Assembly (NCBI RefSeq): GCF_024521635.1 | Contig: NW_026250437.1 | Span: 186,001-250,000 of the forward strand | Direction of reading: 5' to 3' | Source: Tricharina praecox | Taxonomy: Eukaryota | DNA length: 64,000 bases | In this document: piece by piece, positions 4,487-58,406 of the stretch | How the letters are laid out: the number at the start of each line of letters is the position of its first letter | Numbering within the stretch: position 1 is the first letter of the stretch | Made by a program: the position numbers and the translations under genes | The notes under the pieces: generated by a model | What the model saw: the letters and a program-made list of their open reading frames with translations, nothing else | Databases searched by the model: none | What the model was told of the DNA's origin: nothing

Positions 4487-4614
4487 GGTGGAGATAGGCA
4501 GAGGAAGTTGATGGCTTTGGGCAAGCTATGGTGGGCAATTACCATAGAGCCCGGGGTCTAGAGATGCCCCTTTTCTGTGTCCCATACTCAGAGCTCGACG
4601 GTCTGACCGAAGAG

Positions 4615-5164
4615 GTGGGGTTGGCGTTGTCGATTAACAGTCCCAGGCCCGAAGACCCACACATATCAGGCTACGAGTTTGACTAAACTACGCTTCTATT
4701 CGATCGGGGCTTGATCATGAAGTCGCTGTTACAATCAAGCAGAAATATCTCCAAAGACAGCTGATTTTACGCCTGGTGTTGTCAAGGCTGGACCGATGGC
4801 TCCACATACCAGTGATCAACTACCTACTATCAGAGCCCACAACCGCCAATTGCTACGAAGGAAAACTCTCGCCCCGAGATATAAACGGAGAGAGATGTCT
4901 GTTCTGTCCCACTTGCTGTCGTAGATATCACATGACGGACTTTTGATATTCGCTTCCACAGACAAGTCGTTGCGCGTGAGCAGGGGTAGCTGTGGGGCAA
5001 TATCTAGTACAGCTAGTGGGGCATTTAGTCTATAGTAGTGGTGGGAATCTCCATGTACTTTGTGGGGTAGTAAATGTAGATCTTACGCGGGGTATCTGAT
5101 ATTCCAATCCCACCGATACATATGTTTGTGGGGTGCCGGCGTGGTGCTAACGTGCTAGGTGGGG
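4615..5164. promoter_or_regulatory. GTGGGG box cluster in the divergent hydrolase/dehydrogenase promoter
   Basis: GTGGGG at 4615, 4992, 5016, 5062, 5128 and 5159, plus GCGGGG at 5087. Confidence 0.6.
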
Positions 5165-5275
5165 AGAGCCAATGGTGGTGTACGGTAACACCTCAAAATG
5201 AATGGAAGCTGAAGCATCAATTGAACGAGGTCACTCTAACCATCAATTTCACAGTACAATCAACAATAGTGAGCG

Positions 5276-6357
5276 ATGGCAGAATCAATCTACCCACCCT
5301 CGATAGGCTTCATTGGACTTGGGGCAATGGGCTATCCCATGTGTTCCCAGCTCCGCCAGAAACTACCGGTCACCACGCCGCTGTATATTTTCGACGTCAA
5401 TGCCGCCGCGCTTACACGTTTCACCATCGAGCACGCGAATAGCGGTCCCATTACCGTCTGTTCGTCTGCGAGGGAAGTTGGAGAAGCCGCTGTATGTACT
5501 ACCATTCGCTCTCAGCGGTGTAACTACCACTGATCATTTGACAGGACACAATCATATCGATTGTCCCGGAAGGCACGCACGTCGAAGCGGTGTACCTCTC
5601 GGCGAGCGGCCTACTGCGTGTATCCAACCTGGCGGGAAAAACACTAATCGACTCCTCGACGATCGGGGTGTCAACCTCGACCTCGGTGTCCTCGTTTATC
5701 CCCGCGGGCACGCGCTTCCTCGACGCGCCGGTCTCCGGCGGCCCCATGGGCGCCGAAAAGGGCACGCTGACGTTCATGGTCGGCGCAGCGGAAGACGCGT
5801 TCTTCACTGCGCGGCTGCGCCCGCTGCTAATGCTGATGGGGAACAATATCTTTGCTTGTGGAGGCCCAGGATGTGGCCTCGCTGCAAAGCTGTGCAATAA
5901 TTACCTCTCCGGATTGATCGCTGTGGCCACAAGCGAGAGCATGAACCTCGGGTTCGTCCTTCCATCCTTCAGTCCTCCCGCCCAAACTAACACACTGTAA
6001 AGCATGCGCTCAGGCCTAGATCCCGCCGTCCTGCACGCGATCTTCAAGACCTCGACAGCGCAGAACTGGGTCAGCGACAGCTGTAATCCCGTCCCGGGGG
6101 TATGTCCGGAAGCGCCGCCGAGCCGGGGGTACGAGGGCGGCTTCAGGGTCGAGTTCATGAGGAAGGACTTTCAGCTTGCCGTTGAGGCGGCGGAGCAGGT
6201 CGGTGCGAGGCTGGAGCTGGGGGAGGCGGGGCTGAGGGTTTATACTGCTGCTAGTAGGGATGAGAGGTTCCGCGGAAGGGACTCGAGAGTGGTTTATAAG
6301 TGGCTGGGGGGAAGGGATCCGACGGTGGCAGAAGGAGGGAAGGAGGCAGAGATGTAG
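5276..6357 (+). CDS. 3-hydroxyisobutyrate dehydrogenase / beta-hydroxyacid dehydrogenase family, NAD-binding; 2 introns (about 5493-5545 and 5952-6002)
   Basis: IGFIGLGAMG Rossmann motif, DSSTI, DAPVSGG, catalytic Lys in AAKLCNN, C-terminal YEGGFRVEFMRKD. Confidence 0.9.
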
Positions 6358-7197
6358 TTATGACGGCGGGATACATATAGAACGGGAAACCTCTTTCTTC
6401 ATGTCAAACTCTCTCCCATCTAGAGTTCATTCTCTAGGTTTCTAGTGATATCAAGTGATACTCCATAGTGGTGACCTCTGATTATTCCCGCAACCGCTCT
6501 TCCGCCTACGCACTGGGACGCAATGGAAAACCCATGAATAGATGTGTGATTTCTGTAGAATCCGAAGTATCTGCCATACGTTTCTTCAAGCAATGAAAGT
6601 GCCCGCCGAGAAAGCCGTGCGAGTGATCGTATATGATGTTGCAATTGATTAATCTTCAGAATCAATCTACTGACAGGTTAGGGTGAATAGAGCACTCCAC
6701 ACAAAGGTCTCAGAATGGTGGGCAAGTGATACAATTGGAACTCCAGGGATGTACCTAGGTGCAACACGAGGAGTGCGTGGAGTCTACACAATGGACAGAT
6801 TCCCAGTTGAAGCAAAAGCAGCTTACCGTGATGATGGATTTCTAGATACTAAAGGAAAACACAGCAATTCTTGCAATAAACGTAAACACACGAATCACGA
6901 TAATGCCAGCACTCGCCCGAAATCAATCCACTTTTGCCATGTCAAGGTCCTTCATCGCAATCTTAGCCACGTAAAGTTCCTAGCTCAACCTCTGATGTTA
7001 CAGCTTGGAATTGCGAGTCGCTAAGTACAACGTCACTTGAATGGGGCGGCGAGTTTCTACTGTGTTCTGCATCCGAAGCACGTCTAAATGCCTCCCATTC
7101 ATTTGATTCATCTCTTTAAAAAGATACATACAAGCACCAGAGAACAGACGGATATGAAACTACAAAATAAAGCAAAAGAAGACAAAACCCCCACGCT

Positions 7198-8587
7198 CTA
7201 CGCCGAAAAATCCTCATCCAAAAACTCGTTCATCTGACTTGCCATCATTATGCTCGTCTCCTTCGGCTTGGTATTGAGCGCACGGAAAAACTCATCTCTG
7301 GACTCCACCACCGTTGGATCTTCCGAATGCAGCCGGAGCTTGTTCTCCATACTCTGCGGATTCGAGTACTCGACGAAGGCCTTCCTCCGCACATCGCCGT
7401 ACCGCCGAAGCAGCTGGTCGGACTTGTCGGCATCGCCCTTGACCAGCAGCCGGATTAATATAGTACCGAGCGCTGCGGCATCCATGAGTCCTGTCGTGAG
7501 TCCGAGGCCGCCGATGGGGTTGTTGGACTAAGTTTGAGATATCAGTCATGTATCCTCTGCAAAGTTTCGAGCGAAGAACTTACGTGTGCAGCATCTCCCG
7601 CGAGAATGATTCTTCCGACAACATACTCCGCCGCGACCCGTTGATGCGCCCAATACGGGCTCGCATTGAGGAGCTCACACTCCTTCCTCTCCTCCGCAGT
7701 ACCGGGCAGCAGCTCCGCGAACTTGGCCGGTATCTGCTCCAGGATTTTATCGTCGGGCACATCCGTTCTTACACCGAAGGCGACCCTCCAGATCCCCTCC
7801 TCGGGCTTCCCCGTGCGCGCAACGACCGCCCAGTCCTCAGGGTCGACGATCATATTTGCCGTCGGGAAGTTGTACTTATCGAAACCGGGATACTTAACAT
7901 TCGTAGCGACGAAGCGGAAATCATCCCACGTAGACCCTTCGAAGGGGATACCCAGGCTCCTGCGGACACTGCTCCCGGCACCATCACACCCGACCACATA
8001 ATCGGCCGAAAACCACTTCTCGCCGCGATTTGTGACCATGCACACACGGACCTTGTCGGCGTCCTGCGTTGCGCCCGCGAAGCGGTGCGAAAATCGGATG
8101 CCGAAAGTCGGACATAGCTCGGCGCGCTTCTGGATTATCGCTGCAAGCTGGTGCTGCCCCATGTGGATACCCGCGTAGTCGAATTTGTTGACGCCCTTGG
8201 GCACCACCGAAAGCGACATCCGCGCAAGGACTTTGTCGCCTTTGCCGGCTGGCGTGCGAAACACGACGCCGTCCGAGTTGATGTGCCCCCCGTCGATCAC
8301 GTCTTGCAGGAGTCCGACTTTTTCGAACTCGTTGAGGACGACGGGCATGTAACTGGGGAATGTTAACTGTGGTCTGAAAGATGGGGGGAGAGATGTGCAT
8401 ACGTCGTCGCCCGTGGGGATTGCATGATCCCTCGCTCGCCCTCGAGAACAAGCACGTCGATGCCCTCGCGAGCTAGCTTTAGGCCGAGGAAGAGACCGGT
8501 CGGCCCGGCGCCGACGATGATGACCTGGTGGTGCTCATGGTCGGTTGGCGGCACGGCTGGATGGAGGTGCGTGTTGAAGCTGGGCAT
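7198..8587 (-). CDS. FAD-dependent monooxygenase (aromatic-ring hydroxylase, PheA/TfdB/FAD_binding_3 type); 2 introns
   Basis: VIIVGAGPTG (GxGxxG), VVGCDGAGS (DG motif), and ILAGDAAH spliced to SNNPIGGLGLTTGLMDA (GD motif). Confidence 0.9.
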
Positions 8588-8752
8588 ATTTGTGTGAGAG
8601 AATTATGAGATGGGGAAGATGATGTGTGTAGACTCTGCTGGATGGTCAAGGTTGAGGTCGGATTGATGTTGCATTATATGCCTATAAGCATCAGGTCGAT
8701 CGTTTGCCTCTATGAAGTCTCCGCGATATCATACGGCCCTCCCGTTGCCGAC

Positions 8753-8997
8753 GTGGGGCGATCGTGGGGAAGTGGGGCGCCGGCGTAAGGGTCTTCCGTT
8801 CCCCTTCCGTCCCCGCTCACTGCCATCATTCCAGCATCCGAGATGACAGGTGGGTGGACTCCCTTGCATACGCGATTGATCTCCACGTTGTTAGTGACAC
8901 GAGCATAAGGCTTCAGTTGAATGTGGGGAGTGCTGCTCGGCTGCGCATTTGGTGGGGTTCTCCACACTACATACTAGTAGCACATCCGATACCCCAC
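8753..8997. promoter_or_regulatory. GTGGGG/CCCCAC box cluster in the divergent monooxygenase/P450 promoter
   Basis: GTGGGG at 8753, 8764, 8772, 8923 and 8952, and CCCCAC at 8992. Confidence 0.6.
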
Positions 8998-9129
8998 AAC
9001 GAACGACTGACATGGTTCGGGCCGCCACCATGAAGTGGATACAGGAAAGGCTTCGGTATATAGTATATTCCGGACACCGATACTTGTGCTGTGTTTGTCA
9101 GAAGAATATCAGGCTATCGTAACGGCAAC

Positions 9130-10995
9130 ATGATGGATTCTTTCAAGTCTCTTACTGTACCGGCTACTCTTAATCCTCTGGCACTTGCAGCGACAACGCT
9201 GAAAGGATATGCTTTGCTCGGGATCGTGGGCGTGGTGGTACGAAACACAGCTCCCACCTTCAGTGAACTAAAACTTGGCTAACAACAAACAGCTGGTAGC
9301 ACTCCTCACAAAATTCCTCACCTCCGACAAACGACGAAAACACCTCCCACCGGGCCCAAAGGGTCTGCCTCTCATCGGGAGTCTTCTAGAATTCGCCGAA
9401 TCCGACGAAGTCCCCAAGAAGGTAGAGGAATGGGCCCGAAAGTATGGCGATATCTTCCATCTCCGGCTAGGCCAGACGGATTACATCTATCTCAACACGC
9501 CGGCTGCTGTTAAGGAGTTGATGGATAAGCGAAGCTCGAAGTATTCTTCGCGGCCCTTTCTACCCATGGCGTTTGGGGTCGTGTCCGCTTTTCGGAGGAT
9601 GCTGTTTATGGAGTATGGGCCTGAATGGCGGGTGAGTCTCTCCACTTCCACCTGCAAGTTGTGTATCTAACGTGGTGGATGTCTAGAGCCAACGCAAACT
9701 GGTGCACAACCTCCTCAATATCCGCCGCTCGATCTCCTACCAGCCTGTCCAAGACTTCGAGTCCAAGCAAGTGATCTTCGACATGCTCGACAACCCCTCG
9801 GGGTTCTACGACCACAACCGCCGATACTCCGCCTCGGTAATAATGCTCGTAACCTACGGCTACCGCGTAACGAGCTGGAATGACCCCGTGGTGCAAGAGA
9901 TCTACAGCGTACTCGACAACTTCACCAACATCTCTGCACCCGGCGCCTTTCTCGTAGACTCCTTCCCCTCACTCGCCAATTGGCCGCAATGGCTCCTCGG
10001 AAACTGGAGGAGCAAGGGGCAAGCCATGTACGAACACGACAGCAAAGTCTACCTCAAGCTGTGGCGGCGGCTGAAGTCGGAAGTCGACGCGGGCACCGCT
10101 GCAGAGTGCTTCTGCAAGGACTTCTACCTGGCCGATCCGAGCAAGAATGGTATTGATGAGCTGGGCGCGGCGTTTGCGGCCGGTGGATTGGTCGAGGCCG
10201 GCTCCGAGACCACGTCGACCACGCTCAATAACTTTATCCTGGCCGGTCTACTGTTTCCTGAGGCGATTGCAAAGGGACAGGATGAACTCGATAGAGTTGT
10301 GGGTAGCGATCGGCTGCCTACATGGGACGATGAGCAGAACCTACCTTACATTCGCGCGATGGTTAAGGAGATCCTCCGGTGGCGGCCCGTCAACAAGTTT
10401 GGGATGAACCACGCGCTGAGCGAGGACGATTGGTGGAATGGATACTTCCTGCCGAAGAACTCGGTTGTCATGTTGAACTGGTGGTATGTCCCCCGATAGC
10501 AGCTATTGAATGTGGCAAGTGGAACTTACATGAAGAAGGGCTATCCATCGCGACCCAAAGAAATGGGAAAACGCAGATCAATATATCCCCGAGCGGTACC
10601 TGGGCGTGAATGAGTCAGCTGCCGACCTCAGTACCGCAGCAGACCCGAACGGCCGCGACCACTGGAGTAAGTCCTTATCTACATCCCCCAAATCACCTAC
10701 TAAAAAACAGTCAGCCTACGGCGCCGGCCGCCGCATCTGCCCGGGAATCCATGTCGCCGAGCGGTCACTATACATCAACATTGTACGGTTCGTGTGGGCA
10801 TTTGATCTGCACAAACCCGTGGATGCGGCTACGGGTAAGGAGATAGAGCCGACGATGAGTATGGTTAGGGGATTCCTCAGCACGCCGAACCAGTTTGGAG
10901 CCGATATCCGGCCCAGGAGTAAGCGCCATGCCGAGGTAGTGAGAAGGGAGTGGAGTAACGCGCAGAGGGAGGGGTTGAAATGGAGTCGAGACTAG
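9130..10995 (+). CDS. Cytochrome P450 monooxygenase (CYP64/OrdA-like clan); about 4 introns
   Basis: N-terminal TM segment, PPGPKGLPLIG hinge, I-helix EAGSETT, K-helix EILRWRP (ExxR), PERY, and heme motif YGAGRRICPG. Confidence 0.92.
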
Positions 10996-45927: not shown

Positions 45928-46997
45928 TGGATCGTAACTTTAGACTTAGAGTTCCAAAATGGCCACGCGACTCCACTCAACCCGGAAAATCTCCAAAAGT
46001 AGGCCAGAATATGTCCAAAGAATTTGCGGAGAGAGTTGTTCTCTTGGTTCGTGGCTACAATCTAGTGAATTTTGAAAGTTTTTCACGCTTGTGATTGAGG
46101 TTTTAAACGAGAAGAGGCGCGAGAGATCTTCGCCATCTGGCAAGTCGCAATTTCAGATACAAACTTGCCCCATTCAGCACAAAAATCGTCACCTAAATAA
46201 TGAATACTCTGGGGGCAAAGAGATGATACATTAAAAGCCCTTGACGGTCATCAACTTTCCAAAAGACAAAGCACCGATGAATAAATGCTGCCGCACGGTA
46301 TATCACTCGCTGAAACCTGGCAGACAGATAAATCACACCTCTGATGTCTCAAAACAAGTCCTGGAAGCCCTGATTTCACCAATCTTTCTCTACAGCACTA
46401 CTCTATCGCATTCCAAACGTCACATCGCCAGCTGCCCTGTCGTGGAAGGCTATAGAAGCGGTCCAAGTGTCCAAATTCTTCTCGAGGAGACGACATTTTT
46501 ATTCTTCCATATTTACCTCTGAGGGTTGCTTATGATCTTCAGTATTGCTACGAAAGGTAACCCAGAATAAATCCTATTTTTAAAAATGTTACGATGGCAT
46601 AGACCGCCGGACAAAAATTAGCCTCGTTTTGAGATGACGAAAAATGTCGACATTTGCGTCCAAAACCCAATGATCGCGTAAGGTCTGGGGGGCGCCGCTG
46701 CGTCACATCAATTTCTAGAGTGGCTACATCATATTTTATGAGTTCTAGGGGTTGAGGGCAAGGGTCATGTGGTGGTGGGCCAGTATGGTCGTGGAAAGTT
46801 AATTTGCGCTTCTGGGTGGAAAGCTAGCCTTAAACCATCATTAGAACTACCATAATATGATTGAAACCCTTTATTCGTATCTAAAGAAAAACTCTATCTA
46901 GTCACAGCCCTACTCCGGGGTGTTGGTGGTGCGACTGGGTGGGTGGAGGAGTGGCCATTTCTGAGGCGATTTTGGAACTCCAGCGCGTTACGATCCA
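45928..46997. mobile_element. Probable non-autonomous DNA transposon relic with imperfect terminal inverted repeats (about 1.07 kb)
   Basis: Left end TGGATCGTAAC..GAGTTCCAAAAT..GGCCAC..CTCCAC; the right end reverse-complemented gives the same blocks in the same order. Interior is relatively AT-rich and non-coding. No TSD seen. Confidence 0.55.
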
Positions 46998-47219
46998 TAG
47001 GATAGCACTGATGATAACGGGGGGTTCTTTGCCGCCACCAGCAGCTGCAAGAAGTCGAGAGTAATAGGAACGAGGTTGAACTTCACTGGAAGATTCTTTC
47101 GCAACTCTGTTGGAATACCTACATATATGAGTAGTGGCACCGCCGCCGAGGAATTACACCGTGGGAATCCGCGGTTACGCTTAAGGTGCAAATTTCACAG
47201 GGTAGTACCTACCTATGTC

Positions 47220-47419
47220 GACGGGCTGCGTGTACAGCTCCTCTAAACTCGATAGGGAGCGGAAAAGCCTCAAAACAGGCTGTGGACATTGGAGACGATC
47301 CTCGGTCAAAGTGTGATACCTGGGCTGGTGTCAAGTGGGCGGCAAAAATCCGGGATATCGCGGAGATCGTGCGGAATCTACACATGCATAAGGTATCACT
47401 CCTAGTGTTGTACCAGTGA
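47220..47419 (+). pseudogene. Frameshifted fragment of a HeLo-like N-terminal exon (fourth paralog remnant)
   Basis: DDPRSKCDTWAGVKWAAKIRDIAEIVRNLHMHKVSLL matches DDPKSKFGIWDRGKWAAKDQDIAKILRNLQMHKTSL of the gene at 54891. Confidence 0.8.
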
Positions 47420-47802
47420 AGATGGTAATGGCCCTTGGTGGATCGCCGTGGCGGCCGTACGTGTTTTGGAAGCCAAAAGATCTGAGTATCTCCTACGTAT
47501 GAATATCGTGCCTTGGATCCAACGAGCATATATATAGAGGGCTCGAAGCGATTTACCTAGGTATTGTAGCGCTGCGCATTGGCACTTGAGTCGCTGATCG
47601 GACGACATGGTACAAATAGTATCCGCTTTGATTGATTGTCTCTACACGGTGAATCCGTGGAACGTGTGCAAGATTTGATACATAGGTGCCACCGATACCA
47701 TGCATGATGTGCGCTTACAGCCGCACATCACGAACCCCGTGATCGCCTATGAACACCCTCTGCCCACCGGACCACGAGCGTCAACCGGCCACTACTTCCA
47801 CG

Positions 47803-50092
47803 ATGGACCCTCTTTCGATTGCCCCATCGGTAGCATGGTTGTTGCAGGTCGGAGCCAAGGTCATCGGCTTTCTTTCCACCGCGATCGACGCCCCCAGCAC
47901 TGCCCGCAACACTCTCGTAGAAGTACAAGCACTCCACGGGATATTTCGCTAGCTGGACGACTTCATCGTAATTTTCGCCCAACAGAGCATAGCTCGCAAA
48001 TCCAGGATTGCAATCGACGACCTGGTTGTCATCCTGACGGGCTGCGTGTGTAAATTCTCTGAGCTAGATAGGGACCTCAAAGGCGTCAAGACGGACTACG
48101 CCTACAGCACCAAATATCAGTTTCGGCCTTGGGACAGCGTCAAGTGGGCAGCCAAAGAACAGGATATCGCCAAAATACTGCGGAACCTACAGATGCATAA
48201 GACTTCGCTGAATCTATTGCTGTCGGTTTATGCATGGTTAGTCTAGGGTCCCGTCGATGATACTTCCCCGGGGCTCCACCCAGCCCTTCCCGAAGCCTGA
48301 TCTCTTTCGCACACGGCCAACACGTGCGTACGAATAGTTGCTGATACAGAGCTTATTACCTAGTGCATCAACTCAGCAACTGCAACCCGACATGAAAGAA
48401 CTGAAGCAGTTCATGGTGACAGTCAGGGAGGCGGTCCCGGACCTTGTCGAGCGTATAGCAGCAGCAACTCCTCTTGAGCGTAACGACGATGCATTGCTAG
48501 GCCTTTCGGCAGCATCTGGACACGGCTTTTGCAGAGTTCTGGCTGAGACTCGGGTATAAAAGAAAGCGGCTATGGACTCATCAGCTAGTTCTTTCAAGAC
48601 CACCCGCACGACGGAATCCAAATAGTCTCAGCTCACCGGTCTGAGCCTGGCCCAGATATCGAATATATCCGTCCTCTATCTTCCGGTATACAGTTGCGAG
48701 CTGAATAACGGCAGTATGTATGACCAGGGGAAAACCGGCGACAGCGGGGCGCAACTACAGAGCATCACGGGTGGGTTGCTCTCCTTAGGAAGGATTAAAA
48801 AGCCATGGAAACGCCACCGCAAGATCACCACCACCACCACGGTTCGGCATCGCTTGGCCCCAGTTACAGAGCAAGTCATTACACTACACGAAGCAGCTCG
48901 CCAGGGAGATGACATCACGGTCAAGGCTCTTCTACAAACGCCAGGTGTCGACGTTGAGTCCCGGGATGGCGAAGGCTTTACGCCACTGCACATAGCGGTG
49001 TACATCGGACACGTAGCTACAGTGCAGCTACTTCTCGACCGGAATGCCGATGTCGACGCTAGGTTCGACTCCGGCTGGACACTACTTCACTTAGCAGCCC
49101 GCTACGGACATAGACCTACAGTGCAGCTACTGCTCGACCAGAATGCCGACATTGAAGTCAAGTAAAACCGGCATGCTACGGCATTGCACTTAGCGGCTCA
49201 GTACGGACACATAGCTACAGTGCGGCTACTGCTCGACCGGAATGCCAACATCGAGTCCACTAACGATAAAGATCGGACACCGCTTCACCTAGCAGTCGAC
49301 AAAGGATCCACAGCTACAGTGCGGCTTCTGCTTGACCGCAATGCCGACATTGAAGCCAAGGGAAAACAAGGTTTTACAGCGTTGCTCTTAGCGACCAAAA
49401 GCGGACATATAGATAGAGTGCGGCTGCTGCTCGATCGGAATGCCGACGTCGAAGCCACGGACCACAACGACTGAACATCACTTCAGTCAGCAACCCGCTT
49501 CGGACACACAGCTACAATGGAGTTACTGCTCGACTGGAATGCGGACATAGAGGTGATGACCATCCGAGGATTCACCGCGTTGCACATGGCGGCTGAGGAC
49601 GGAGACACAGCTAAAGTACAACTACTGCTCGACCGTAATGCCGACATCGAAGCCAAAGAAAACCGGGGTTCTACGCCGCTGAACATAGCGACTCAACAAG
49701 GACACACAGCTACAGTCCAGCTACTACTCGACCGGTGTGCCGAGGCCGTGGACAACGACTGGACACATGTTCACCTGGCAGTCCAGAACGGACATGCAGA
49801 TGCATTGCAGCTTCTACTTAACCTGGGTGTCGATATCGAAGCCAAAGGCAAATACGACCGGACGCCACTTCACGTGGCGGCGCTTTATAAGTGGGATGCT
49901 ATAATACAACTACTGCTCGACCACGGTGCTGTTGTCCACGCCAGAGATAGGCACGGCTGGACGGCTCTGCAACTAGCCGAAAATAATGGGCACGAGGCCA
50001 CGGCACAGCTGCTTCGACAGTTTGCAATTGGCACCCCTAAGGAGGACCAGGCTGCGGTTGCTGGTTCGGTTTCCCGGAACAGGCGCAAATGA
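47803..50092 (+). pseudogene. HeLo-like-N + linker + about 12 ankyrin repeats, copy A; five in-frame stops; intron 48237-48363
   Basis: MDPLSIAPSV start; stops at 47950, 48557, 48623, 49163 and 49472, with the frame otherwise preserved. Confidence 0.85.
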
Positions 50093-50784
50093 CGACGCCG
50101 CACGATTGGTATGATACTATTAGCAAGATGGGCAGCTGTCGGACCTGTACATAGCAGTAGAAACAGTGTAATACATACTGGCTTCGCTTCCAAGTTCCAA
50201 TTCACATTTGTTGCCCGAGCTAGGTACTCAAGATAGCCCGCCACCGAGCGGCCACCTCATCGCCGAAAAGTGCGCAGCAAACCACGACCTTCTGCTAATC
50301 CTCCGGTAACAAGTCGGAGCTGAGGATGTGTGAGGTGAGAACAGGCACTGCCGAGGGGCGGCATGTGGCGAGCACAGATAGGTAGAATCACACATTATAT
50401 GGTGGTGCCGTATGGCGAGCAGCCTGCAGGCCCCCATGAATACCTTTTGAAGCACTGTAGGTAGTGCCCGGAGGGTGAAGCAAAACATCCTATTGTACGT
50501 ACGAGGTCGAACGAGTGACTGGCAAGGTGAGGTGCACCGTGCGAACCCATATGGCCGGATACCCATCAGAACGGGTTTCTCTAGGACTGTCGTAGTTATG
50601 ATTCTCAGGCCAAGGGCAAGTCGTGGCCACCACCGTCATATCGCCGTAAGTGCCAAAGTAGTTGCTCCCGCACAAATCTCATTAACTATATCTCACTCGT
50701 TTCGCTGCTGCCTGCTGGTTTATGACCGTAATGGGACTAGTGTGTAGATCATAGTCACGTGACGTGGGCGGCTGGCCGCCACCA

Positions 50785-50882
50785 TCGGACTGGGACCAAC
50801 CCTGTCAGGCGCCACCTCGGACCGGACGGACTACCTCCAAACGGTCTGGACGGCCGTTCGGGCCGGACTACGGAGCACACTG
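50785..50882 (-). mobile_element. Solo end of a hAT-like element between copies A and B
   Basis: Reverse complement reads CAGTGTGCTCCGTAGTCCGGCCCGAACGGCCGTCCAGACC, similar to 22046 onward; GGAC-rich. Confidence 0.5.
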
Positions 50883-51164
50883 TCCTCGGCATCGCTAATG
50901 CGAGATCCCCGTGGATCATACTCTGGTTGGTCCCGAAGGATATTACTAATGCGACAACCTAGAGTATAAGGAAGACCGGGCGTCGCACAAGGCTGCCAGC
51001 AGCGAGGGGAACACCTAGAGGGATGGGGGTGGTGGGGGCGGGTGAGTGACCCGACTCCGCAACAGGCCGCCTACTGTGCATACCAAACACCACGCCGCGC
51101 GCACACCGACCTATCGTCCGTCCTCCAACCTTCGACCGCTTACATACAAGCTGCCGTTTCCTCG

Positions 51165-53821
51165 ATGAATCGCCTCTCGGTTCCCGCATCGGTCGCGGGG
51201 CTACTGCGGGCCAGCACAACGATCATCAGTGTTATCTCCGCCGCCGTCGACGCTCCCCGCACTGCGCGTAACGTGCATGACGAGGTGCAAGCGCTGCACG
51301 CGATTCTCCGGCAGCTGGACGACTGCATAGTCGGCCGTTTCGCCGAGCCGGAGAGCATGGCGCGAAAATCGCAGATCTATGTCAACGATCTGGTCGTTAC
51401 TCTGGCCGGCTGTGTGCGTACTGTCTCGGATCTGGATAAGGAGCTTGGGGGTGTAAGGGCGGCTGGCAGCGGCAACAGTAATAGGCCTCAGCGTAGGCGC
51501 TTGGAGGGTGCTAGGTGGGCCGCGGAGGATCCGGATATCGCAAAGATACTGCGGAACCTGCAGATGCTCACGATAGCTTTGAGCTTGTTGCTGTCGGTGT
51601 ACACATGGTTAGTCCTGGGTCCTCACCGATGTGTGATGGCAACTCCCATACCTAGGCGACACCCAGCCGTTTAAGGCGGATTGATGATCTCTCTCCCGTC
51701 CAGCCGTTGCGTTTCTACGTATCACTGCTGACAAAGATTAGTACTTCAACGCAAAAACTGCAAGACGCCATGGCAGAACTCGAGCAGTCTCTGACAGCTG
51801 TCAGGAAGACGTTCCCGGACGTCGCAGAGCCCATGATAGCAGGAATTCTAGCGGAGACTAGGGAATACACCAAGGCGTGGAAGAACGATTCATCAAGCTC
51901 TTTCGAGACCACCGGCACGATGGATTCCAAATGGTCCCAACGTACTGGGCTGAGCTTGGCGCACATCTCAAAAATATCGTTCCTCTGTCTTCCTATATCC
52001 ATTTCGGAACTAAATAATGGTTACATGTATGCCCAGGAGAAATCCAGCGACAGTGTGGTGCAACTTCGCAATATCCGGAGTGCATGGCCCTCTGTGGAAG
52101 GACTTCAACGGCTACGGATGAGCGGCAGCACCATCACCACCGTTATTCGACACCGCTTCACACCCGTGAACGAAAGGGTCACTGCGTTGCATGATGCAGC
52201 TCGTAAAGGAGATAACGCCACTGTCGAAGCGCTTGTACACAGGCTGGGCGTCGATGTAGACTCCCGGGATTGGGAAGAAGAAAGTTCGGCGCTGCACAGG
52301 GCAGTTGTTTCAGAGAAGATCGATACTGTGCAGTTGCTGCTCGAACTCGGGGCTGATATCGAGGCCACGGAACCCGACGACTGTACACCGCTCCATCGGG
52401 CGGCACAAAACGGACAAACAGCTATAGTGCAGCTACTACTCCACCGCGGTGCCGATATCGAGGCTAAGGATAACGTTGGTTCCACGGTGCTTCACACGGC
52501 CGTTGACCATGGGCGTGCAACTACAGTGCAGCAGTTGCTCGACCACGGTGCCGGCATAGAATCGAAGGACAACAACGGTTGGACATCACTTCACCGGGCT
52601 GCCTGGAAAGGTCATCTACATACAGTAGAGCTGCTGCTCGACCTTGGGGCCGACATCGAGGCGAAGACCAACAGCGGTCACACGGCATTTCATCGAGCAG
52701 CTTGGAACTGGAACACTACGACAATCCGATTACTAATCGACCGTGGTGCCAACATCGAAGCTACGACAAACCGCGGTCATACGGCGCTTCGCCGAGCTGC
52801 CCTGAATGAGCTCACTAGTGGTACAGTGCGGCTACTGCTCGCCTGTGGTGCTAATATCGAGGCAAAGGGGAACAACAGTCATACGGCGCTTCACCGAGCA
52901 GCTTTGGACGGACACATAGCTACAGTGAAACTACTGCTCGAACTTGGTGCCGACATTGAGGCCAGGACCAACACCAGTCACACGGCACTCCACCGAGCGG
53001 CCTTGCACGGGCACACCACTATAGCGCAGCTACTTCTCGACCGAGGAGCCGACATCGAGGCCAAGGCAACCAACGATTGTACGCCGATCCACCAAGCGGC
53101 ACAGAGTGGGCACACAACTACATTAAGGTTGCTGCTCGAATGCGGTGCTAACATCGAGGCTAAGACGAAAAGTGGTCGTACGGCCCTTTACCAAGCGGCC
53201 CAGGGCGGATACACAGTCGCAATACGGCTACTTCTTGACCGAGGTGCTGAAATTGAGGCCAAGACCGATGAGGGCTTCACGGCACTGCTCACAGCGGCCT
53301 ACGAAGGACACGGAGCGACAGTGCAGCTACTGCTCGACCGGGCTGCCGATACTGAGGCTACGACGGATCTGGGCTTTACCGCGCTGCACGCAGCGACTCA
53401 GAACGGGCACATAGATACAGTACAGCTGCTGCTCGACTCGGACGCCGACATTGAGGCCAATCAGAGCGGCAACTGGACACCGCTTCACCGAGCGGTCCAG
53501 AACGGACACATAGCTACAGTGCAGCTACTACTGGACCGCGGCGCGAACATTGAGGCCAACGCCAACAGCGGCCACACGGCGCTTCATCGAGCGGCCATGA
53601 ACGGGAATCTAGCCATAACCCAGCTGCTGCTCGACCGTGGTGCCGACATTGAGGCCAAGCAGAGCGGCGATTTGGCGCCGCTTCACCTAGCGGCACAGAA
53701 CGAACACACGGTTGTAGTGCAGCTACTACTCGACCGCGGTACAGACATCAAGACAAGGGACAAGGACGGCCGGACACCGCTTCACCGGGTGTCACGTGAT
53801 GGGTTCCCTGATATATTGTAA
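51165..53821 (+). CDS. HeLo-like-N + linker + about 17 ankyrin repeats, copy B; intron 51608-51741; premature stop truncates the final repeats (ancestral end about 53992)
   Basis: MNRLSVPASVAGLL...RWAAEDPDIAKILRNLQ, with TALHRAA..GH....LLLDRGADIEA repeats. Ankyrin-like sequence continues in frame past TAA 53819. Confidence 0.75.
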
Positions 53822-54890
53822 TTGCTACTCGACCGCGGAGCTGACGTCCAGGCCAAAGATCAGTACTGTTGAACGCCGCTGCCCCTAGCTGTAGAGAATG
53901 ACAATCATGCCGCAGCACAGGTGCCGCGTGGGCTAGAGGCTATAGACACTAGTGGCTCCAATACGCCCGTGCTCCCCATCGGAACTTCGTAGAGAGACCC
54001 ACGAGGTACGCCTGCTGGGGACATGGACTGACTACGAGACCACGTGATACACAGTACATAGTAGTAACATTAGTAGTCGTACATAAGAGTTGTGGCAGTC
54101 GCAGCGGAGGATCGGGATGGGAATGCCGTAGGTACGTGCGAGTGGGAATTTCTTCCGTACTCTCGCCTGTTGAATAGGTATTTGTATATTACATTCGCTG
54201 CCGGGTGGTTCGAGATCGCTATGCCCCACAGGACTCCTAGTAGTTAGCTGCCCCCCGGCTGTGACTGGGAGTTGTCTGCCACCACCATGGGAGGAGGGAT
54301 GTAGGATAGATGGGCGATCAGATAAGATAGGAGGATGAGCTAGTCAGATCGGTGTATCCGAATGGTAGGGAGAGCCGAACTAGCCGGATCGGGTGGCACC
54401 AAACGTTCTAGGCAGCAGAGGAGAGCCATATTCGATGGTTCTTCGAAGTTGAATACAACCCCAACTTTTCCATCTTGTTTATTTTCACCGTTCCCTCTGC
54501 CGGGCTATGTCATCATACCCGCAGTACGCCAGACATGGAGCCGTACGATTAGCCTTCGATATTTTGAGAAGCGTTCTGCACACGATTTAGGTTCGCAATC
54601 CGCCACCACGTGCACCACCGCCGCCGCGTCCGACGGACTCGGTGTGCCTTCTGGCGTCCTGCCCGATGTGTCCAAGTGCTCCGGCGGGTTTTCAAAAGAA
54701 ACGTTGCCAATGGCTGCATGCCGCTCGTATCTAGCTACCGGTACCGCTAAGCCACGAGGCTCCTAGATAGGTGTTTCGCAGGGCTGTGCATCTGCGGGGA
54801 ATATTGTGGTATATAATGACACTGGATCTCTACCACCAGCCGGCGTCCAATAGGTAGCTCACTACACACCCATACTTTGGTTAGCAAGTC

Positions 54891-57225
54891 ATGGACCCTC
54901 TTTCGGTTGCAACGTCAGTTACGGGACTATTGCAAATCGGAGCAAAGGTCATCGGGCTCCTTTCCACCACTATCGACGCTCCCAGTACCGCGCGTAACGT
55001 GCTCGCCGAGGTCAAATCACTGCACGCGATCTTTGGCCAGCTGGAGGACTTCATAGTCCACTTCACTGAGCAGAGCATGGCCCGGAAATCTAGAATCTAC
55101 GTCGAGGATCTGGTCGCTACTTTGACGGGCTGTGTGTGCACTTTCTCCGAACTCGATAAAGAGCTCAAGGGCCTCAAGACCGACCACAGCGACGATCCCA
55201 AGTCCAAGTTTGGTATCTGGGATCGCGGCAAATGGGCGGCAAAAGACCAGGATATCGCGAAGATTCTGCGAAACCTGCAAATGCATAAGACATCTCTGAG
55301 CCTGTTACTCGGCATTTACACATGGTAGGTCCAATAATTTCCGGTTTATCCCCCACCTCTTATGCCCCATGACCGCGTGTATGTACATGCTACAGACATT
55401 TACGGTGTACCTTAGTTCGTCGACGCAGCAAGTGCAACGCGACATGGCCGAACTGAAACGATTCATGACGGCAATCATGGAGGCGAATCCGAGCCTCGAG
55501 GCGCGCATGGTGGATGCTTCGTCGGGGGATGATGATGTATCCTCGGTTCGTTCCCGAACTTCGATCCTCTCCACAATATCGGAAAGGTGCTTTCGCCATT
55601 TCTCAACCGAGCATGAGCAGACTCCGGTTGAGAATGGAGTGAATAAACAGGCAGCCGGAAATTCAGCAATCGGCTCTCTTAGGAGCATCCGAACGTCGGA
55701 TTCTAGGTCGAGCCAGCTCAGTGGGCTGAGCATGGCCCAGATTCCGAACTTATCGATCATTTGTCTTCCAGTAAATATTTCCGAGCTGAACAATGGCGAC
55801 ATGTACAGCCGGAGCGGGAGGGAAACTGGTGGCCGCGTGGCCGGAGAGGGGCTCATTGTGGGGCAATTGCAACGGCTTCGAAAGGGCAGCATCAATCTTA
55901 CCACCTCAGTTCGATATCACATGACACCCTATAGTTCCAGGACGTCTCTGTTACACGCCGCCGCTGGCAGGGGAAACACCATCGCCGTCATGTCGCTCGT
56001 ACAAAGTCTGGGCCTCAGCATCGAGGCCATAGACACCACTGCAGGAAGAACTCCGCTTCACTTCGCAGTCATCAACGGGCATACCGATACAGCGAAACAC
56101 CTACTCGACCAGGGCGCTGACATAGAGGCCGAGCAGGCGGAGGCGTCTCGGAGGCCGCTTCACTTAGCGGCTTGGGGCGGACACACAGCTACAGTGCAGC
56201 TTCTTCTCGACTGGAATGCCGACATTGAAGCCAAGGAGCTCCACGGTTTTACGGCGCTGCAGTTCGCGGCTCAGATGGGACACACAGCTACAGTGCAGCT
56301 ACTGCTCGACCGAAATGCCGGCATCGAAGCGATAGATAATGACTCCTGGACATCGCTTCACCACGCAGTCAGAAACGGACACACAGCTACAGTACAGCTT
56401 CTGCTCGACCGTAATGCCGATATCAAAGCCACGCGATTCGGGGGTGCTACGGTGCTGATCGTAGCGGCACATTACGGATCCACGAATACAGTGCGGCTAC
56501 TGCTCGATCGGAATGCCGACATAGAGGCCAAGAATGACAAAAGTTATACGGCACTACTCGCAGCGGCTGGAGACGGACACACAGCTACAGTGCAGCTTCT
56601 GCTCGACCGGAATGCCGACATTAAAGCCAAGGAGCTCCACGGTTGTACGGCGCTACAGTTGGCGGCTCAGATGGGACACACAGCTACAGTGCAGCTCCTG
56701 CTCGACCGGAATGACGACATAAAGGCTACGACGAAAGACGATTTGACACCGCTTCATCTGGCAGCCCGGAACTTTGACCCAGATACAGTGCAGTTACTGC
56801 TCGACCGGAATGCCGACGTACAGGCTACGACGAAAGACAACCGTACACCGCTCCACGAGGCTGCCGCGTACGGAAGATACAAGACATTGAGGCTATTGCT
56901 CGATCGGAATGCCGACATAGAGGCCAAGACCAGCCGGGGTCTCACAGCACTGCTCATAGCGGCTGAGGGCGGGCGCATATATGCAGTGCGGGTACTGCTT
57001 ATCTGGAATGCCGACATAAAGGCCACGGATAGAGACGGCTGGACAGCGCTTCACCTGGCGGTCCAGAGCGGACACACAAGTATAGTGGATGAACTGCTCC
57101 GCCGGAATCCCAACATAAAGGCCAAGACCAGCCTGGGTCTCACGGCATTGAATATAGCCACTCAAAAGCGCTATTCAGATATCGTGAAGCGACTGCTCAA
57201 AGCGATTGCTGCCATGGAGGAGTGA
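54891..57225 (+). CDS. HeLo-like-N (fungal STAND N-terminal-like) + linker + 13 ankyrin repeats, copy C, intact; intron 55325-55415
   Basis: MDPLSVATSVTGLLQIGAKV...DAPSTARNVLAEV...LTGCVCTFSEL...KWAAKDQDIAKILRNLQMHKTSLSLLL, then 13 TxLHxAxxxGH-type repeats; no internal stop. Confidence 0.88.
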
Positions 57226-58406
57226 GACCGACGATAAGTACAATTTGTCGCTGTTTCCCTTGGCTGCCGTTAGCGGGAACGCGGCTAATTGCTACTGGAA
57301 TGCAGGTGTGCCAACGTCGAGGCATAGTCCAAGATCGGTTGAAGAGGGCGAAATAAGAGGCCGGATGATGGCCGAGAATAGGAGTTTTATGTAAGGAATG
57401 AAGATGTCGTTTGGGCGGATAATTTTTGGGGATGAGGTGGAATGAACGGTTTCTCTAGTTATCCCACGAGTGACCAATCATGCCGCACACAGGCGGTCCC
57501 TGTGTCCCTCCGACCCCGGCTGGGCCGTATCGACCCTACTCTACTCTGTGGCTACTCAAAGTATAGTACCTAGCTCCGCATCCACTACAGGCTGCGATTG
57601 ACCGTTCGCCTTTCGTACTGCCGCTTCGATCCGCTTCACATCAAGTTCCAAGGGGGAGGGAGGGCACAGAGGAACCGAGGAACAGCCTGCGCTGATACCC
57701 ACGCACGGGCGAGTGCGTGGAGGTACCCAGGGATGCCGAAGCGAATACGCCGGTTGAGATTATATACTCTATGTCCTGTACGATGCACACTCGACGCTCC
57801 GAGTCCGAGTCCGAGTCCGGGTTGCGCGAGTGCCAGTGCGTGATCGCGCCGAGGGGTTGGACTGGTTTTCGCGCGCTTGACGCCGTCCGGGAGGAGGAGA
57901 GAGGATTCGCACGAGTTGAGTGCCCCAGGGCCGAGTCCGTATGCACATACTCTACATATCCTCCGCCAACCAAACCAGAGTGCGATCGCAGCGGGCAAAC
58001 AGCATCTTCACACGCAAGCACTCACTCTTTTCCACAACTGGACGGGACGGTCACGAACCCCGCCCGATCCGACACAAGTTACAACCACCACCAACGCGCG
58101 TTTGGAATGCGGCGAGGCATGGGCGGGGTATGTATCATACAGGTTGTAAGAGAGCCTGGTCCAACGCGACCAGTCATCTCCCGCCAGCGAGGAATGTGTT
58201 TGGATCGATCTTGAGGACACGGGACACGGGACAGCGAGCGAGGGAGGGAGGGCTGTAGCTTCTCTTGGACGACAGATGGTGGGTCTTCTGATTCGAGAGT
58301 GTAGCCGTGGTTCTCGGCGCAGAACATACCCCAGCCCTGGGGGGCCTTAGACATGATGCTTATCCGCTTTCACAGAGCAGCTAGAACTATCCTGGAGCGA
58401 GAACGA

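What the first reader, a model, noticed from the sequence alone, without database searches (positions are those of the whole stretch)
47220..57225. Tandem array of NOD-less HeLo-like-ankyrin genes: candidate minimal fungal immune or cell-death receptors in birth-and-death evolution
Seen: four same-strand paralogs (fragment, pseudogene, truncated, intact). The three full-length copies share a roughly 145-aa MDPLS-type N-terminal domain, one intron at the same codon (TG|T, Cys), a conserved linker motif, and 12 to 18 ankyrin repeats. There is no Walker A motif and no room for a NACHT/NB-ARC domain. Known: HeLo/HeLo-like domains are membrane-targeting death effectors (HET-S, HELLP; related to MLKL/RPW8) normally activated via an NLR NOD module or an amyloid motif, and ankyrin arrays are NLR sensor domains. 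Inference: a two-part sensor-executioner that bypasses the NTPase switch. I do not know of a functional description of this architecture; it is the best candidate for an undescribed system in this window.
Basis: partly seen in the sequence, partly recalled or inferred. Interest (0 to 1): 0.82.

Follow-up and report, generated by a model that had tools for sequence, protein, structure and literature searches.

The report
Tandem HeLo-like–ankyrin genes without a NOD
A soil fungus carries a tandem row of four related genes (two expressed, one truncated, one dead, one a scrap) that join a predicted membrane-attacking "HeLo-like" head directly to an ankyrin-repeat tail, a widespread but functionally untested protein design that may act as a self-contained cell-death switch.

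Summary
Window 47221-57225 (+) holds four paralogs: a 190-bp fragment, a pseudogene with 5 in-frame stops, a copy cut short by a premature stop, and an intact 747-aa gene. Transcript contigs from two studies skip exactly the predicted introns of the last two copies.

Each full copy has:
- a PF17111 (PigL_N, formerly Helo_like_N) N-domain;
- a conserved linker motif;
- 12, 13, or 16 plus a partial ankyrin repeat.

There is no Walker A motif, no NACHT/NB-ARC match and no room for one.

The design is not rare. PF17111 is now named after PigL, and Monascus MpigL is listed as an ankyrin-repeat protein. The roughly 285-aa N-module has 1584 representative relatives across Pezizomycotina. In 149 scanned, it is fused to ankyrin, RhoGAP, Cdc24-GEF, Ras, G-alpha, kinase, SH3 or CRIB domains, and never, through that module, to a NOD.

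So this is not an NLR that lost its NOD. It looks like an MLKL-style two-part protein. The fold match to the MLKL four-helix bundle (Z 13.1) is suggestive, not decisive. No function has been tested. I rate it a new member of a catalogued but uncharacterised family, of moderate interest.

The parts
47221..47410 (+). Copy A: fragment of the N-domain, matching D residues 79-139. It has no start and no repeats.
   Evidence: tblastn hits at 47221-47277 and 47285-47410; ORF text.
47803..50092 (+). Copy B: pseudogene. Exon 1 is 47803-48236, the intron 48237-48363, exon 2 48364-50092. It has 5 in-frame stops, 12 ankyrin repeats from 48869, and Trp in place of the family's conserved Gly12.
   Evidence: The family HMM matches residues 1-306.
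48626..48721 (+). Conserved linker motif of B (SQLTGLSLAQISNISVLYLPV...ELNNGSMY).
51165..53821 (+). Copy C: transcribed, spliced and truncated, 840 aa. Exon 1 is 51165-51607, the intron 51608-51741, exon 2 51742-53821. It has 16 ankyrin repeats plus a cut 17th, from 52169.
   Evidence: RNA-type contigs skip the intron (X1 depth 29.7; X2 record 8 of 3236 nt).
51935..52030 (+). Conserved linker motif of C.
53822..53926 (+). Relic of C's lost C-terminal ankyrin repeats. It is in frame behind the premature stop and contains a second stop.
   Evidence: Translation and tblastn against the B and D C-termini.
54891..57225 (+). Copy D: intact, transcribed and spliced, 747 aa. Exon 1 is 54891-55324, the intron 55325-55415, exon 2 55416-57225.
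   Evidence: Contigs X1 record 3 (1708 nt) and X2 record 9 (1547 nt) skip the 91-nt intron.
54891..55536 (+). HeLo-like (PF17111) helical-bundle domain of D, about residues 1-185, interrupted by the intron. Helix 1 carries the conserved residues S5, S9 and G12.
55711..55806 (+). Conserved linker motif of D (SQLSGLSMAQIPNLSIICLPVNISELNNGDMY).
55933..57222 (+). Ankyrin array of D: 13 repeats. The second helix and loop are nearly invariant. The hairpin and first-helix positions vary.
57238..57305 (+). 68-nt GT..AG intron, starting 12 nt behind D's stop codon. Transcript contigs skip it.
   Evidence: table 5; sequence.

Best explanation
**What it is (shown).** The locus is a tandem, same-strand family of genes for two-part proteins. 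Each has an N-module of about 285 aa and a C-terminal array of 12-17 ankyrin repeats, with no nucleotide-binding domain. The N-module is a PF17111 HeLo-like helical bundle of about 185 aa, then a Ser-rich stretch, then a conserved motif of the form SGLSL..IS.ISv..LP...ELNNG.MY. Copies C and D are transcribed and spliced. C has lost its C-terminal cap to a nonsense mutation. B is dead and A is a scrap.

**How it most likely works (inferred).** I read it as an MLKL-type switch without an NTPase.
1. At rest, the helical bundle is held inactive by the linker and the ankyrin array.
2. A ligand or partner binds the variable face of the ankyrin repeats, or the protein is clustered.
3. This releases the hydrophobic, small-residue-rich first helix (S5, S9, G12).
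4. That helix targets the plasma membrane and permeabilises it, giving a cell-autonomous death or defence response.

The locus evolves by duplication, divergence and loss, as recognition genes usually do.
For: **Domain identity**
- PF17111 hit on D exon 1: 28.4 bits against a cut-off of 27.2.
- PF17111 hit on the spliced relative P0001: 32.0 bits over residues 39-221.
- ESM Atlas: nearest clusters are PF17111/SesA at 0.96.

**Fold**
- The AF2 model of D exon 1 has pLDDT 86.9 and four long helices.
- By VIA-align, MLKL 4btf_A scores Z 13.1 (rmsd 2.4 A over 100 residues, rank 3 of 48161) and the MLKL N-domain 6ux8_A Z 11.6.
- Plant immune coiled-coil or N-terminal domains also appear: Sw-5b N-terminal Solanaceae domain (SD) 11.1, NRG1.1 CC-R 10.6, MLA13 9.6.
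- The same set appears with the P0001 model.

**First helix**
- It holds three of the seven most conserved residues of the family: S5 94%, S9 91%, G12 94% of 117 sequences. Positions 8, 16 and 17 are also mostly small residues.
- Its 19-residue Kyte-Doolittle maximum is 1.56-1.69.
- A glycine zipper in this helix is reported as required for HELLP membrane targeting (bioRxiv 10.1101/839308, a passage citing Daskalov 2016).
- The pseudogene B has W at G12.

**Published homology.** Helo_like_N aligns with the MLKL executioner domain (PMC9815663 passages).

**No NOD.**. In addition, none of the 36 neighbouring ORF translations scanned matches NACHT or NB-ARC.

**Expression and splicing.** Shown for C and D in runs of two studies.

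**The module is conserved.** An HMM built from 116 relatives, without window sequences or P0001, matches D 1-283, B 1-306 and C 1-176 plus 183-284.

**Partner domains in relatives look like binding or pseudo-enzyme modules.** I read these against catalytic motifs recalled from memory.
- 1 of 1 kinase partner has NFG in place of DFG.
- 4 of 4 G-alpha partners lack the switch-II Gln.
- 2 of 2 Ras-like partners lack a canonical DxxGQ.
- 0 of 7 RhoGAP partners has the G[ILVM][FYL]R arginine-finger motif.

This pattern parallels MLKL's pseudokinase.

**Ankyrin variability.** It is concentrated in the hairpin and first-helix positions.
Against: - No function was tested here, and the searched literature gives none for any NOD-less PF17111-ankyrin protein.
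- The Pfam hit is borderline. C exon 1 alone scores 15.6 bits, below the cut-off.
- The fold match is not exclusive. IncA (Z 13.6), a ciliary protein (13.2) and dynactin (12.7) tie with MLKL, and the tool warns that Z up to about 13 is common for helical bundles.
- Foldseek found nothing at E <= 0.001.
- A profile search of PDB sequences found neither MLKL nor HET-s.
- The ankyrin repeats are only 69-78% alike at DNA level, not the >85% of hypervariable NLR repeats.
- Transcript contigs of X1 and X2 differ from the window at 0 and 2 places over C and D. No polymorphism is therefore shown, though how these sources relate to the window is unknown.
- The name-giving relative, MpigL, sits in a pigment gene cluster, which is not an obviously immune setting.
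Confidence: 0.4

Rival explanations
1. The N-module is a non-lethal membrane anchor or localisation module. It tethers scaffolds and regulators (ankyrin arrays, GAP/GEF-like, GTPase-like and kinase-like domains) to the cell cortex. On this view the ankyrin proteins are cortical adaptors in polarity or signalling, not death switches.
For: - The partner domains in relatives are nearly all of kinds that act at the plasma membrane or polarity site. Counts out of the 149 scanned are RhoGAP 7, CDC24-CH 7 (4 of these also match RhoGEF and 2 also PH_10), PH_10 alone 3, G-alpha 3, Ras 2, SH3 2, CRIB/PBD 1 and GIT_SHD 1.
- The Ras-like partner P0101 keeps its G1 and G4 motifs but has no C-terminal CaaX box. 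The N-terminal helix could replace a lipid anchor.
- The first helix is hydrophobic and its small residues are conserved.
Against: - Many partner domains lack catalytic residues, so they are not ordinary working enzymes.
- The family is hugely paralogous and fast-diverging: 1584 representatives at the 50% identity level.
- Tandem copies here are only 38-50% identical in the linker.
- The locus holds a pseudogene, a truncated copy and a fragment. Housekeeping adaptors are usually single-copy and conserved.
- The experimentally studied relatives of the domain (HELLP, HET-S, MLKL) are killers (review passages).
Confidence: 0.25
2. The genes are decaying leftovers of former HeLo-like-NACHT-ankyrin NLRs that lost their NOD and now have no function.
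For: - The locus contains a fragment, a pseudogene and a truncated copy.
- HeLo-like and ankyrin are common N- and C-terminal modules of fungal NLRs (PMC4986451 and PMC12258605 passages).
- Distant relatives occur in a STAND-type context. P0159 is named a NACHT-domain protein. P0158 has sub-threshold AAA_16 and TPR hits.
Against: - D is fully open. C and D are transcribed and correctly spliced.
- The N-module-linker-ankyrin layout recurs in 13 of 149 representative relatives. The same N-module with other partners recurs across Pezizomycotina. No NOD is reached through the N-module.
- The linker carries its own conserved motif, not NOD remnants.
Confidence: 0.07
3. The genes are PigL-like accessory proteins tied to secondary metabolism, acting for example as a regulator or self-protection factor of a nearby biosynthetic cluster.
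For: - The Pfam family is named after PigL of the Monascus azaphilone pigment cluster, and MpigL is co-regulated with that cluster (PMC6431638 passages).
- The window has P450, FAD-monooxygenase, metallo-beta-lactamase-fold and fungal transcription-factor ORFs at 351-10496.
Against: - Those ORFs lie about 37 kb or more from the array, with unrelated genes between them: VWA, tRNA methyltransferase, RabGAP, kinase, TFIIS-type and GFO/IDH oxidoreductase.
- None of the ORFs scanned matched a core biosynthetic enzyme family such as PKS, NRPS or terpene synthase.
- Most relatives carry signalling-type partners, not metabolic ones.
Confidence: 0.05

Closest known systems
PigL / MpigL of the Monascus azaphilone pigment cluster (namesake of Pfam PF17111 'PigL_N')
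   Same: The N-terminal domain family is PF17111, and MpigL is described as an ankyrin repeat protein (PMC6431638, Table 3). UniRef names relatives of the window proteins 'Azaphilone pigments biosynthesis cluster protein L N-terminal domain-containing protein'.
   Different: I did not fetch or scan the MpigL sequence, so its exact architecture is taken from names only. It lies in a biosynthetic cluster, and the window array does not. Its function is also unknown.
HET-S / HELLP (fungal HeLo and HeLo-like death effectors controlled by amyloid templating)
   Same: Both have an N-terminal HeLo(-like) helical domain with a hydrophobic first helix needed for membrane targeting (review passages). In both, a flexible region and a short conserved motif follow the domain.
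   Different: HET-S and HELLP end in a prion-forming amyloid motif and are triggered by an adjacent NLR. Here the C-terminus is a long ankyrin array. No NACHT or NB-ARC ORF was found among the 36 neighbouring ORFs scanned. I did not test the linker motif against amyloid-motif models.
Fungal HeLo-like-NACHT-ankyrin NLRs
   Same: They use the same kinds of N-terminal and C-terminal modules (PMC4986451 and PMC12258605 passages).
   Different: The window proteins have no NOD: no Walker A motif, no Pfam hit and no room. Their closest relatives have none either. NACHT occurs in 1 of 149, and that protein matched only through its ankyrin end.
MLKL (animal and plant necroptosis or immunity executioner)
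   Same: It is a two-part design without an NTPase: an N-terminal four-helix bundle, a linker, and a non-catalytic regulatory C-terminal domain. There is fold-level similarity (Z 13.1 and 11.6). One relative of the window proteins, P0093, joins the same N-module to a kinase domain with NFG in place of DFG.
   Different: No sequence-level match was found. The C-terminal domain here is an ankyrin array, not a pseudokinase. No activating kinase or trigger is known.
Arabidopsis RPW8/HR locus (non-NLR resistance genes with a HeLo-related domain)
   Same: NOD-less genes with a HeLo/MLKL-related N-terminal domain lie in a tandem cluster that shows recent duplications and variable C-terminal repeats (bioRxiv 10.1101/839308 passages).
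   Different: It is a plant system with short proteins, and its C-terminal repeats are not ankyrin. Here the duplications are old, and variation between strains was not measured.

Membership tests
Pfam PF17111 (PigL_N, formerly Helo_like_N; HeLo-like N-terminal domain) | Profile match at or above the curated gathering score (27.2 bits) | tested here: met
   D exon 1 scores 28.4 bits. The spliced close relative P0001 scores 32.0 bits over residues 39-221. C exon 1 alone scores only 15.6 bits. I did not submit the spliced C and D proteins to Pfam.
Pfam PF17111 (PigL_N, formerly Helo_like_N; HeLo-like N-terminal domain) | The domain sits at the very N-terminus of the protein | tested here: met
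   The match starts at residue 1 in D. It also starts at residue 1-3 in nearly all relatives.
HeLo / HeLo-like / MLKL 4HB superfamily | Four-helix-bundle fold like the MLKL N-domain | tested here: inconclusive
   MLKL 4btf_A scores Z 13.1 (rmsd 2.4 A over 100 residues) and 6ux8_A Z 11.6. They tie with unrelated helical bundles such as IncA at 13.6. Foldseek found nothing at E <= 0.001.
HeLo / HeLo-like / MLKL 4HB superfamily | Hydrophobic N-terminal helix with a glycine-zipper-type small-residue motif | tested here: inconclusive
   S5, S9 and G12 are conserved in 91-94% of 117 sequences, and positions 8 and 16 are mostly small residues. The Kyte-Doolittle maximum is 1.56-1.69. The spacing is S-x3-S and A-x3-G-x3-A, not a strict GxxxG. 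I know the motif's definition only from a secondary citation.
HeLo / HeLo-like / MLKL 4HB superfamily | Membrane targeting and cytotoxicity of the released domain | not testable with these tools
   This needs expression experiments.
Fungal NLR / STAND receptor | Central NACHT or NB-ARC NTPase with a Walker A motif | tested here: not met
   B, C and D have no [AG]xxxxGK[ST]. Exon 2 matches only ankyrin families. The linker is 105-135 aa, and the NACHT model has 167 positions.
Fungal NLR / STAND receptor | C-terminal repeat domain (ANK, WD40 or TPR) | tested here: met
   Ank_2 scores 386 bits on D and 362 bits on C. There are 12-17 repeats.
HET-S/HELLP-type amyloid-controlled effector | C-terminal amyloid signalling motif (HRAM, PP or sigma) | not tested
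   No motif models were at hand. The protein continues into a long ankyrin array instead of ending after the motif.
HET-S/HELLP-type amyloid-controlled effector | Adjacent NLR gene carrying the matching motif | tested here: not met
   None of the 36 ORF translations scanned across the window matches NACHT or NB-ARC. Only ORFs of about 105 aa or more were scanned, so short exons could be missed.
MLKL family | C-terminal (pseudo)kinase domain | tested here: not met
   The C-terminus is ankyrin only. A relative, P0093, does carry a kinase domain.

The most novel reading that the evidence does not exclude
The 285-aa N-module may be the killer half of a widespread fungal effector-triggered defence system that needs no NOD. 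It would be fused in cis either to ankyrin sensors, as in this array, or to catalytically dead bait copies of the cell's own polarity and signalling proteins. Those baits would be RhoGAP-, Cdc24-GEF-, Ras/Rho-, G-alpha-, kinase-, SH3- and CRIB-type domains. Binding or modification of the C-terminal bait or sensor by a toxin or effector from a bacterial, fungal or viral antagonist would release the HeLo-like bundle to attack the membrane. This would be a fungal counterpart of MLKL and of plant integrated decoys, without the NLR. The reviews I read list only two contexts for HeLo and HeLo-like domains: on NLRs, or on effectors controlled by NLRs (PMC10197012 and PMC12881547 passages).
Probability: 0.15. 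Interest if true: 0.85.

Novelty: new member of a known kind. Interest (0 to 1): 0.5.

Why it matters
Work on fungal HeLo-like death domains has centred on two settings: NLRs, and amyloid-triggered partners of NLRs. This locus is an expressed, well-resolved example of a third setting, in which the domain is joined directly to a binding array with no NTPase switch.

The family survey made here shows that this third setting is common in Pezizomycotina. Its C-terminal partners often look like pseudo-enzymes of the Rho, Ras and G-protein signalling machinery.

If the N-module is a killer, these proteins would be fungal analogues of MLKL. They would offer simple two-part constructs for asking what fungal cell-death domains sense. 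If it is not a killer, the family is a new kind of membrane-tethered adaptor. Either answer can be reached with ordinary expression tests.

Tried and rejected
- **Repeat-induced point mutation as the cause of B's stops: rejected.** The stops are a mix of TAG, TAA and TGA. The composite RIP indices are normal (B: TpA/ApT 0.95, (CpA+TpG)/(ApC+GpT) 1.11), GC is not lowered, and the paralogs are only 67-72% identical in exon 1.
- **Whole genome of the window:** none is held. No genome-wide family count could be made.
- **Word-index search with D's linker:** 2271 candidates, none at E <= 0.001.
- **Word-index searches with the N-domain:** 2 hits and 17 hits. This is far fewer than the exhaustive HMMER search, so they do not measure family size.
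- **Foldseek against the PDB with both models:** nothing at E <= 0.001.
- **HET-s HeLo:** no entry appeared in the 50 rows shown of either VIA-align list. This does not exclude it.
- **Profile search of PDB sequences:** only insignificant hits, the best E 0.07 to influenza M2 transmembrane peptides.
- **Sequencing runs:** no listed holder is on record as RNA. X1 and X2 are treated as transcript-derived only because their contigs lack the introns.
- **RNA cover of A and B:** X1 and X2 contigs do not cover copy A. Over B they give depth only in three bins: 48036-48419 (31.9 and 36.2), 49188-49571 (1.42, X1) and 49572-49955 (0.65, X2). The listed contig at 48174-48180 differs from the window. This is no evidence that A and B are silent.
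- **Joint 48861 -> 56289 in X3:** one contig with only 23 nt on one side. It is too weak to call a deletion allele.
- **Earlier findings of this scan:** three look-ups returned nothing.
- **The paper I recall as the source for HELLP (Daskalov 2016):** not held under the id I tried. It is cited only through passages in other papers.
- **Literature searches for a functional description of NOD-less HeLo-like-ankyrin or other fusions:** none found. Subscription journals and supplements were not searched.


Full report
**Observation**

Stop-to-stop ORFs and tblastn of the D N-domain against the whole 64-kb window show exactly four related stretches. All lie on the + strand:
- a fragment at 47221-47410, equal to D residues 79-139;
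- copy B at 47803-50092;
- copy C at 51165-53821;
- copy D at 54891-57225.

No further copy or ankyrin array lies elsewhere in the window.

Gene models built from the sequence have one GT..AG intron each, of 127, 134 and 91 nt. Each intron splits a Cys codon as TG|T.
- D is open and 747 aa long.
- C is open for 840 aa. Its frame continues as an ankyrin repeat past the stop at 53819-53821 and then meets a second stop, so C has lost its C-terminal cap.
- B has five in-frame stops and no frameshift.

None of the three proteins has a Walker A motif. Repeat counts are 12 (B), 13 (D) and 16 plus a cut 17th (C).

**Expression**

One search for public runs found seven holders. I laid four of them on 46500-58000.
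- Contigs of X1 and X2, from two studies, join 51607 to 51742 and 55324 to 55416. They skip exactly the predicted introns, and the sides are long (X2 record 8 is 3236 nt; X1 record 3 is 1708 nt).
- The two metagenome DNA runs, X3 and X4, carry no such joints.

X1 and X2 are labelled RNA only as a guess. The intron-less contigs are what show them to be transcript-derived. C and D are therefore transcribed and spliced as modelled. A further 68-nt GT..AG intron (57238-57305) lies 12 nt behind D's stop codon.

**Domains**
- Pfam places D exon 1 in PF17111 (PigL_N, the former Helo_like_N) at 28.4 bits against a cut-off of 27.2. C exon 1 alone reaches 15.6 bits. Exon 2 matches only ankyrin families.
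- The closest named relative is P0001 of Tricharina praecox, 76% identical to D. Its public gene model has the same splice junction. Its PF17111 match (32.0 bits) covers residues 39-221, which reaches about 40 residues beyond the intron position.
- ESM Atlas neighbours are PF17111 and SesA clusters of Ascomycota.

**The family**

An exhaustive HMMER search with alignment A1 found 1584 representative proteins at E <= 0.001 and 692 at E <= 1e-10. A few of these match only the short ankyrin end of the profile.

In most of the best 150, the match starts at residue 1 and runs through the linker to about profile position 300. I scanned 149 of them with Pfam: 74 at E <= 1e-5 and 75 at E <= 1e-6. P0002 was not scanned.

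| Domain found in the 149 | Number of proteins |
|---|---|
| Ankyrin | 17 |
| RhoGAP | 7 |
| CDC24-CH (4 of these also match RhoGEF, 2 also PH_10) | 7 |
| PH_10 alone | 3 |
| G-alpha | 3 |
| Ras | 2 |
| SH3 | 2 |
| PBD/CRIB | 1 |
| Pkinase | 1 |
| FHA | 1 |
| ubiquitin | 1 |
| GIT_SHD | 1 |
| HET | 1 |
| NACHT | 1 |

A few proteins carry more than one of these domains, so the rows overlap.

- Of the 17 ankyrin proteins, 3 have the N-domain and ankyrin in one protein, 10 have the linker plus ankyrin, and 4 matched through ankyrin only.
- The one NACHT protein, P0073, matched the query only through its ankyrin end.

Named members come from Pyronemataceae (Wilcoxina, Geopyxis, Sphaerosporella, Trichophaea), Geoglossum, Xylaria, Gaeumannomyces, Fusarium, Oculimacula and lichen fungi. 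Two more distant hits lie in a STAND-type context:
- P0159 is named a NACHT-domain protein.
- P0158 has sub-threshold AAA_16 and TPR hits.

An HMM built from 116 relatives, without window sequences or P0001, matches D 1-283, B 1-306 and C 1-176 plus 183-284. The conserved unit is therefore an N-module of about 285 aa. It includes the linker motif at 55711-55806 in D, 51935-52030 in C and 48626-48721 in B.

Many short public proteins of the family end in '..TW' plus random residues. This is what reading through the same intron position would give.

**Structure**

AlphaFold2 with 132 sequences gives D exon 1 a pLDDT of 86.9. The model has four long helices (3-25, 32-56, 71-96, 110-143) and one short helix. 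The P0001 model adds two further helices after the intron position.

Foldseek found nothing at E <= 0.001. VIA-align against 48161 chains gave the following scores:

| Chain | Z |
|---|---|
| IncA | 13.6 |
| a ciliary protein | 13.2 |
| MLKL 4btf_A (rmsd 2.4 A over 100 residues) | 13.1 |
| dynactin | 12.7 |
| MLKL N-domain 6ux8_A | 11.6 |
| Sw-5b N-terminal Solanaceae domain (SD) | 11.1 |
| NRG1.1 CC-R | 10.6 |
| MLA13 | 9.6 |

The P0001 model gave a similar list. The tool warns that such Z values are common for helical bundles. The fold evidence therefore agrees with the published link between HeLo-like domains and MLKL (PMC9815663 passages) but does not prove it.

The first helix carries the family's most conserved residues (S5, S9, G12) and is hydrophobic. 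A glycine zipper in that helix is reported as needed for HELLP membrane targeting (passage in bioRxiv 10.1101/839308).

**Evolution of the locus**

The copies are old. They are 51-64% identical in the N-domain, 38-50% in the linker and 47-49% in the ankyrin part. They share no non-coding flanks at blastn sensitivity.

Repeats within an array are 69-78% alike at DNA level. Variability sits in the hairpin and first-helix positions. I found no RIP signature. Birth and death is a fair description, but recent turnover and balancing selection are not shown.

**Context**

I scanned 36 ORF translations across the window. They gave ordinary fungal genes and no NACHT or NB-ARC.

**Interpretation**

These are not NLRs, because a defining feature was tested and not met. 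Their nearest relatives do not suggest that a NOD was lost. They belong to a large Pezizomycotina family in which a HeLo-like N-module is joined directly to a binding or regulatory domain.

In the few partners I read by eye against recalled catalytic motifs, the partner looks catalytically dead:
- the kinase has NFG in place of DFG (1 of 1), and all 4 G-alpha partners lack the switch-II Gln;
- both Ras-like partners lack a canonical DxxGQ;
- none of the 7 RhoGAP partners has the arginine-finger motif.

This layout is most like MLKL, which has a four-helix bundle, a brace and a pseudokinase. I therefore favour an MLKL-type latent membrane-attack protein whose ankyrin array is the sensor, with confidence 0.4. 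The main rival is a harmless membrane-anchor module (0.25).

The reviews I read list only NLR-borne and NLR-controlled HeLo or HELL domains (passages in PMC10197012 and PMC12881547). Six full-text searches found no functional account of the NOD-less fusions. The architecture itself is already in the databases, however. PF17111 is named after PigL, and MpigL is listed as an ankyrin repeat protein.

**Verdict**

The locus is a new member of a catalogued but uncharacterised family. Interest is moderate (0.5). The wider pattern of partner domains is the part most worth following up.

Noticed in passing
relatives P0039, P0056, P0062, P0083, P0097, P0100, P0119 (RhoGAP); P0075, P0110, P0112, P0157 (G-alpha); P0082, P0101 (Ras); P0093 (kinase): The same N-module is fused to signalling-type domains that seem to lack key catalytic residues. 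The kinase has NFG in place of DFG. The G-alpha partners have no switch-II Gln, and Ras-like P0101 has Leu where the catalytic Gln should be. None of the 7 RhoGAP partners has an arginine-finger motif. I read these by eye and by regular expression against recalled motifs, with no control set.
   Followed up: partly
window 54891-54975 (first helix of D) and the family profile: The MDPLSVAASVvGLL start of the family gave weak, insignificant profile hits (best E 0.07) to the transmembrane helix of the influenza M2 proton channel. It is a curiosity that fits a membrane-inserting helix. It is not evidence of relatedness.
   Followed up: no
window 57238-57305: Transcript contigs of X1 and X2 skip a 68-nt GT..AG intron that starts 12 nt after D's stop codon. 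Contigs continue to at least 58000. This could be a 3'-UTR intron of D or part of an overlapping downstream transcript.
   Followed up: no
window 47903-47991 (copy B): Contigs of the soil metagenome run X4, at 90% likeness or more, carry C instead of T at 47950. That turns B's first stop TAG into CAG. They carry a dozen other differences nearby (table 3). A related allele, paralogue or species without this stop therefore exists in that sample.
   Followed up: no
window 54474: Contigs of X1, X2 and X3 all run on into unlike sequence behind 54474, between C's transcript end and D's start (table 7). This may be a structural variant or a paralogous locus.
   Followed up: no
window 48861 and 56289: One X3 contig joins B's ankyrin region to D's and skips 7427 bases. 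Only 23 nt lie on one side (table 5). It could be a recombinant or deletion allele, or a repeat artefact.
   Followed up: no
alignment A3 (P0007, P0012, P0017, P0025 and others): Many public 'proteins' of 144-161 aa are exon-1-only calls that end in ..TW plus unrelated residues. They read through the same intron position, which suggests the intron site is conserved across the family.
   Followed up: partly
window 351-10496: This stretch holds ORFs with fungal transcription-factor, metallo-beta-lactamase, FAD-monooxygenase and cytochrome P450 domains. It may be a small metabolic gene group, about 37 kb or more from the array.
   Followed up: no
relative P0101 (Xylaria bambusicola): The Ras-like partner domain keeps its G1 and G4 motifs but ends without a CaaX prenylation box. 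This would fit the N-terminal helix serving as the membrane anchor.
   Followed up: no
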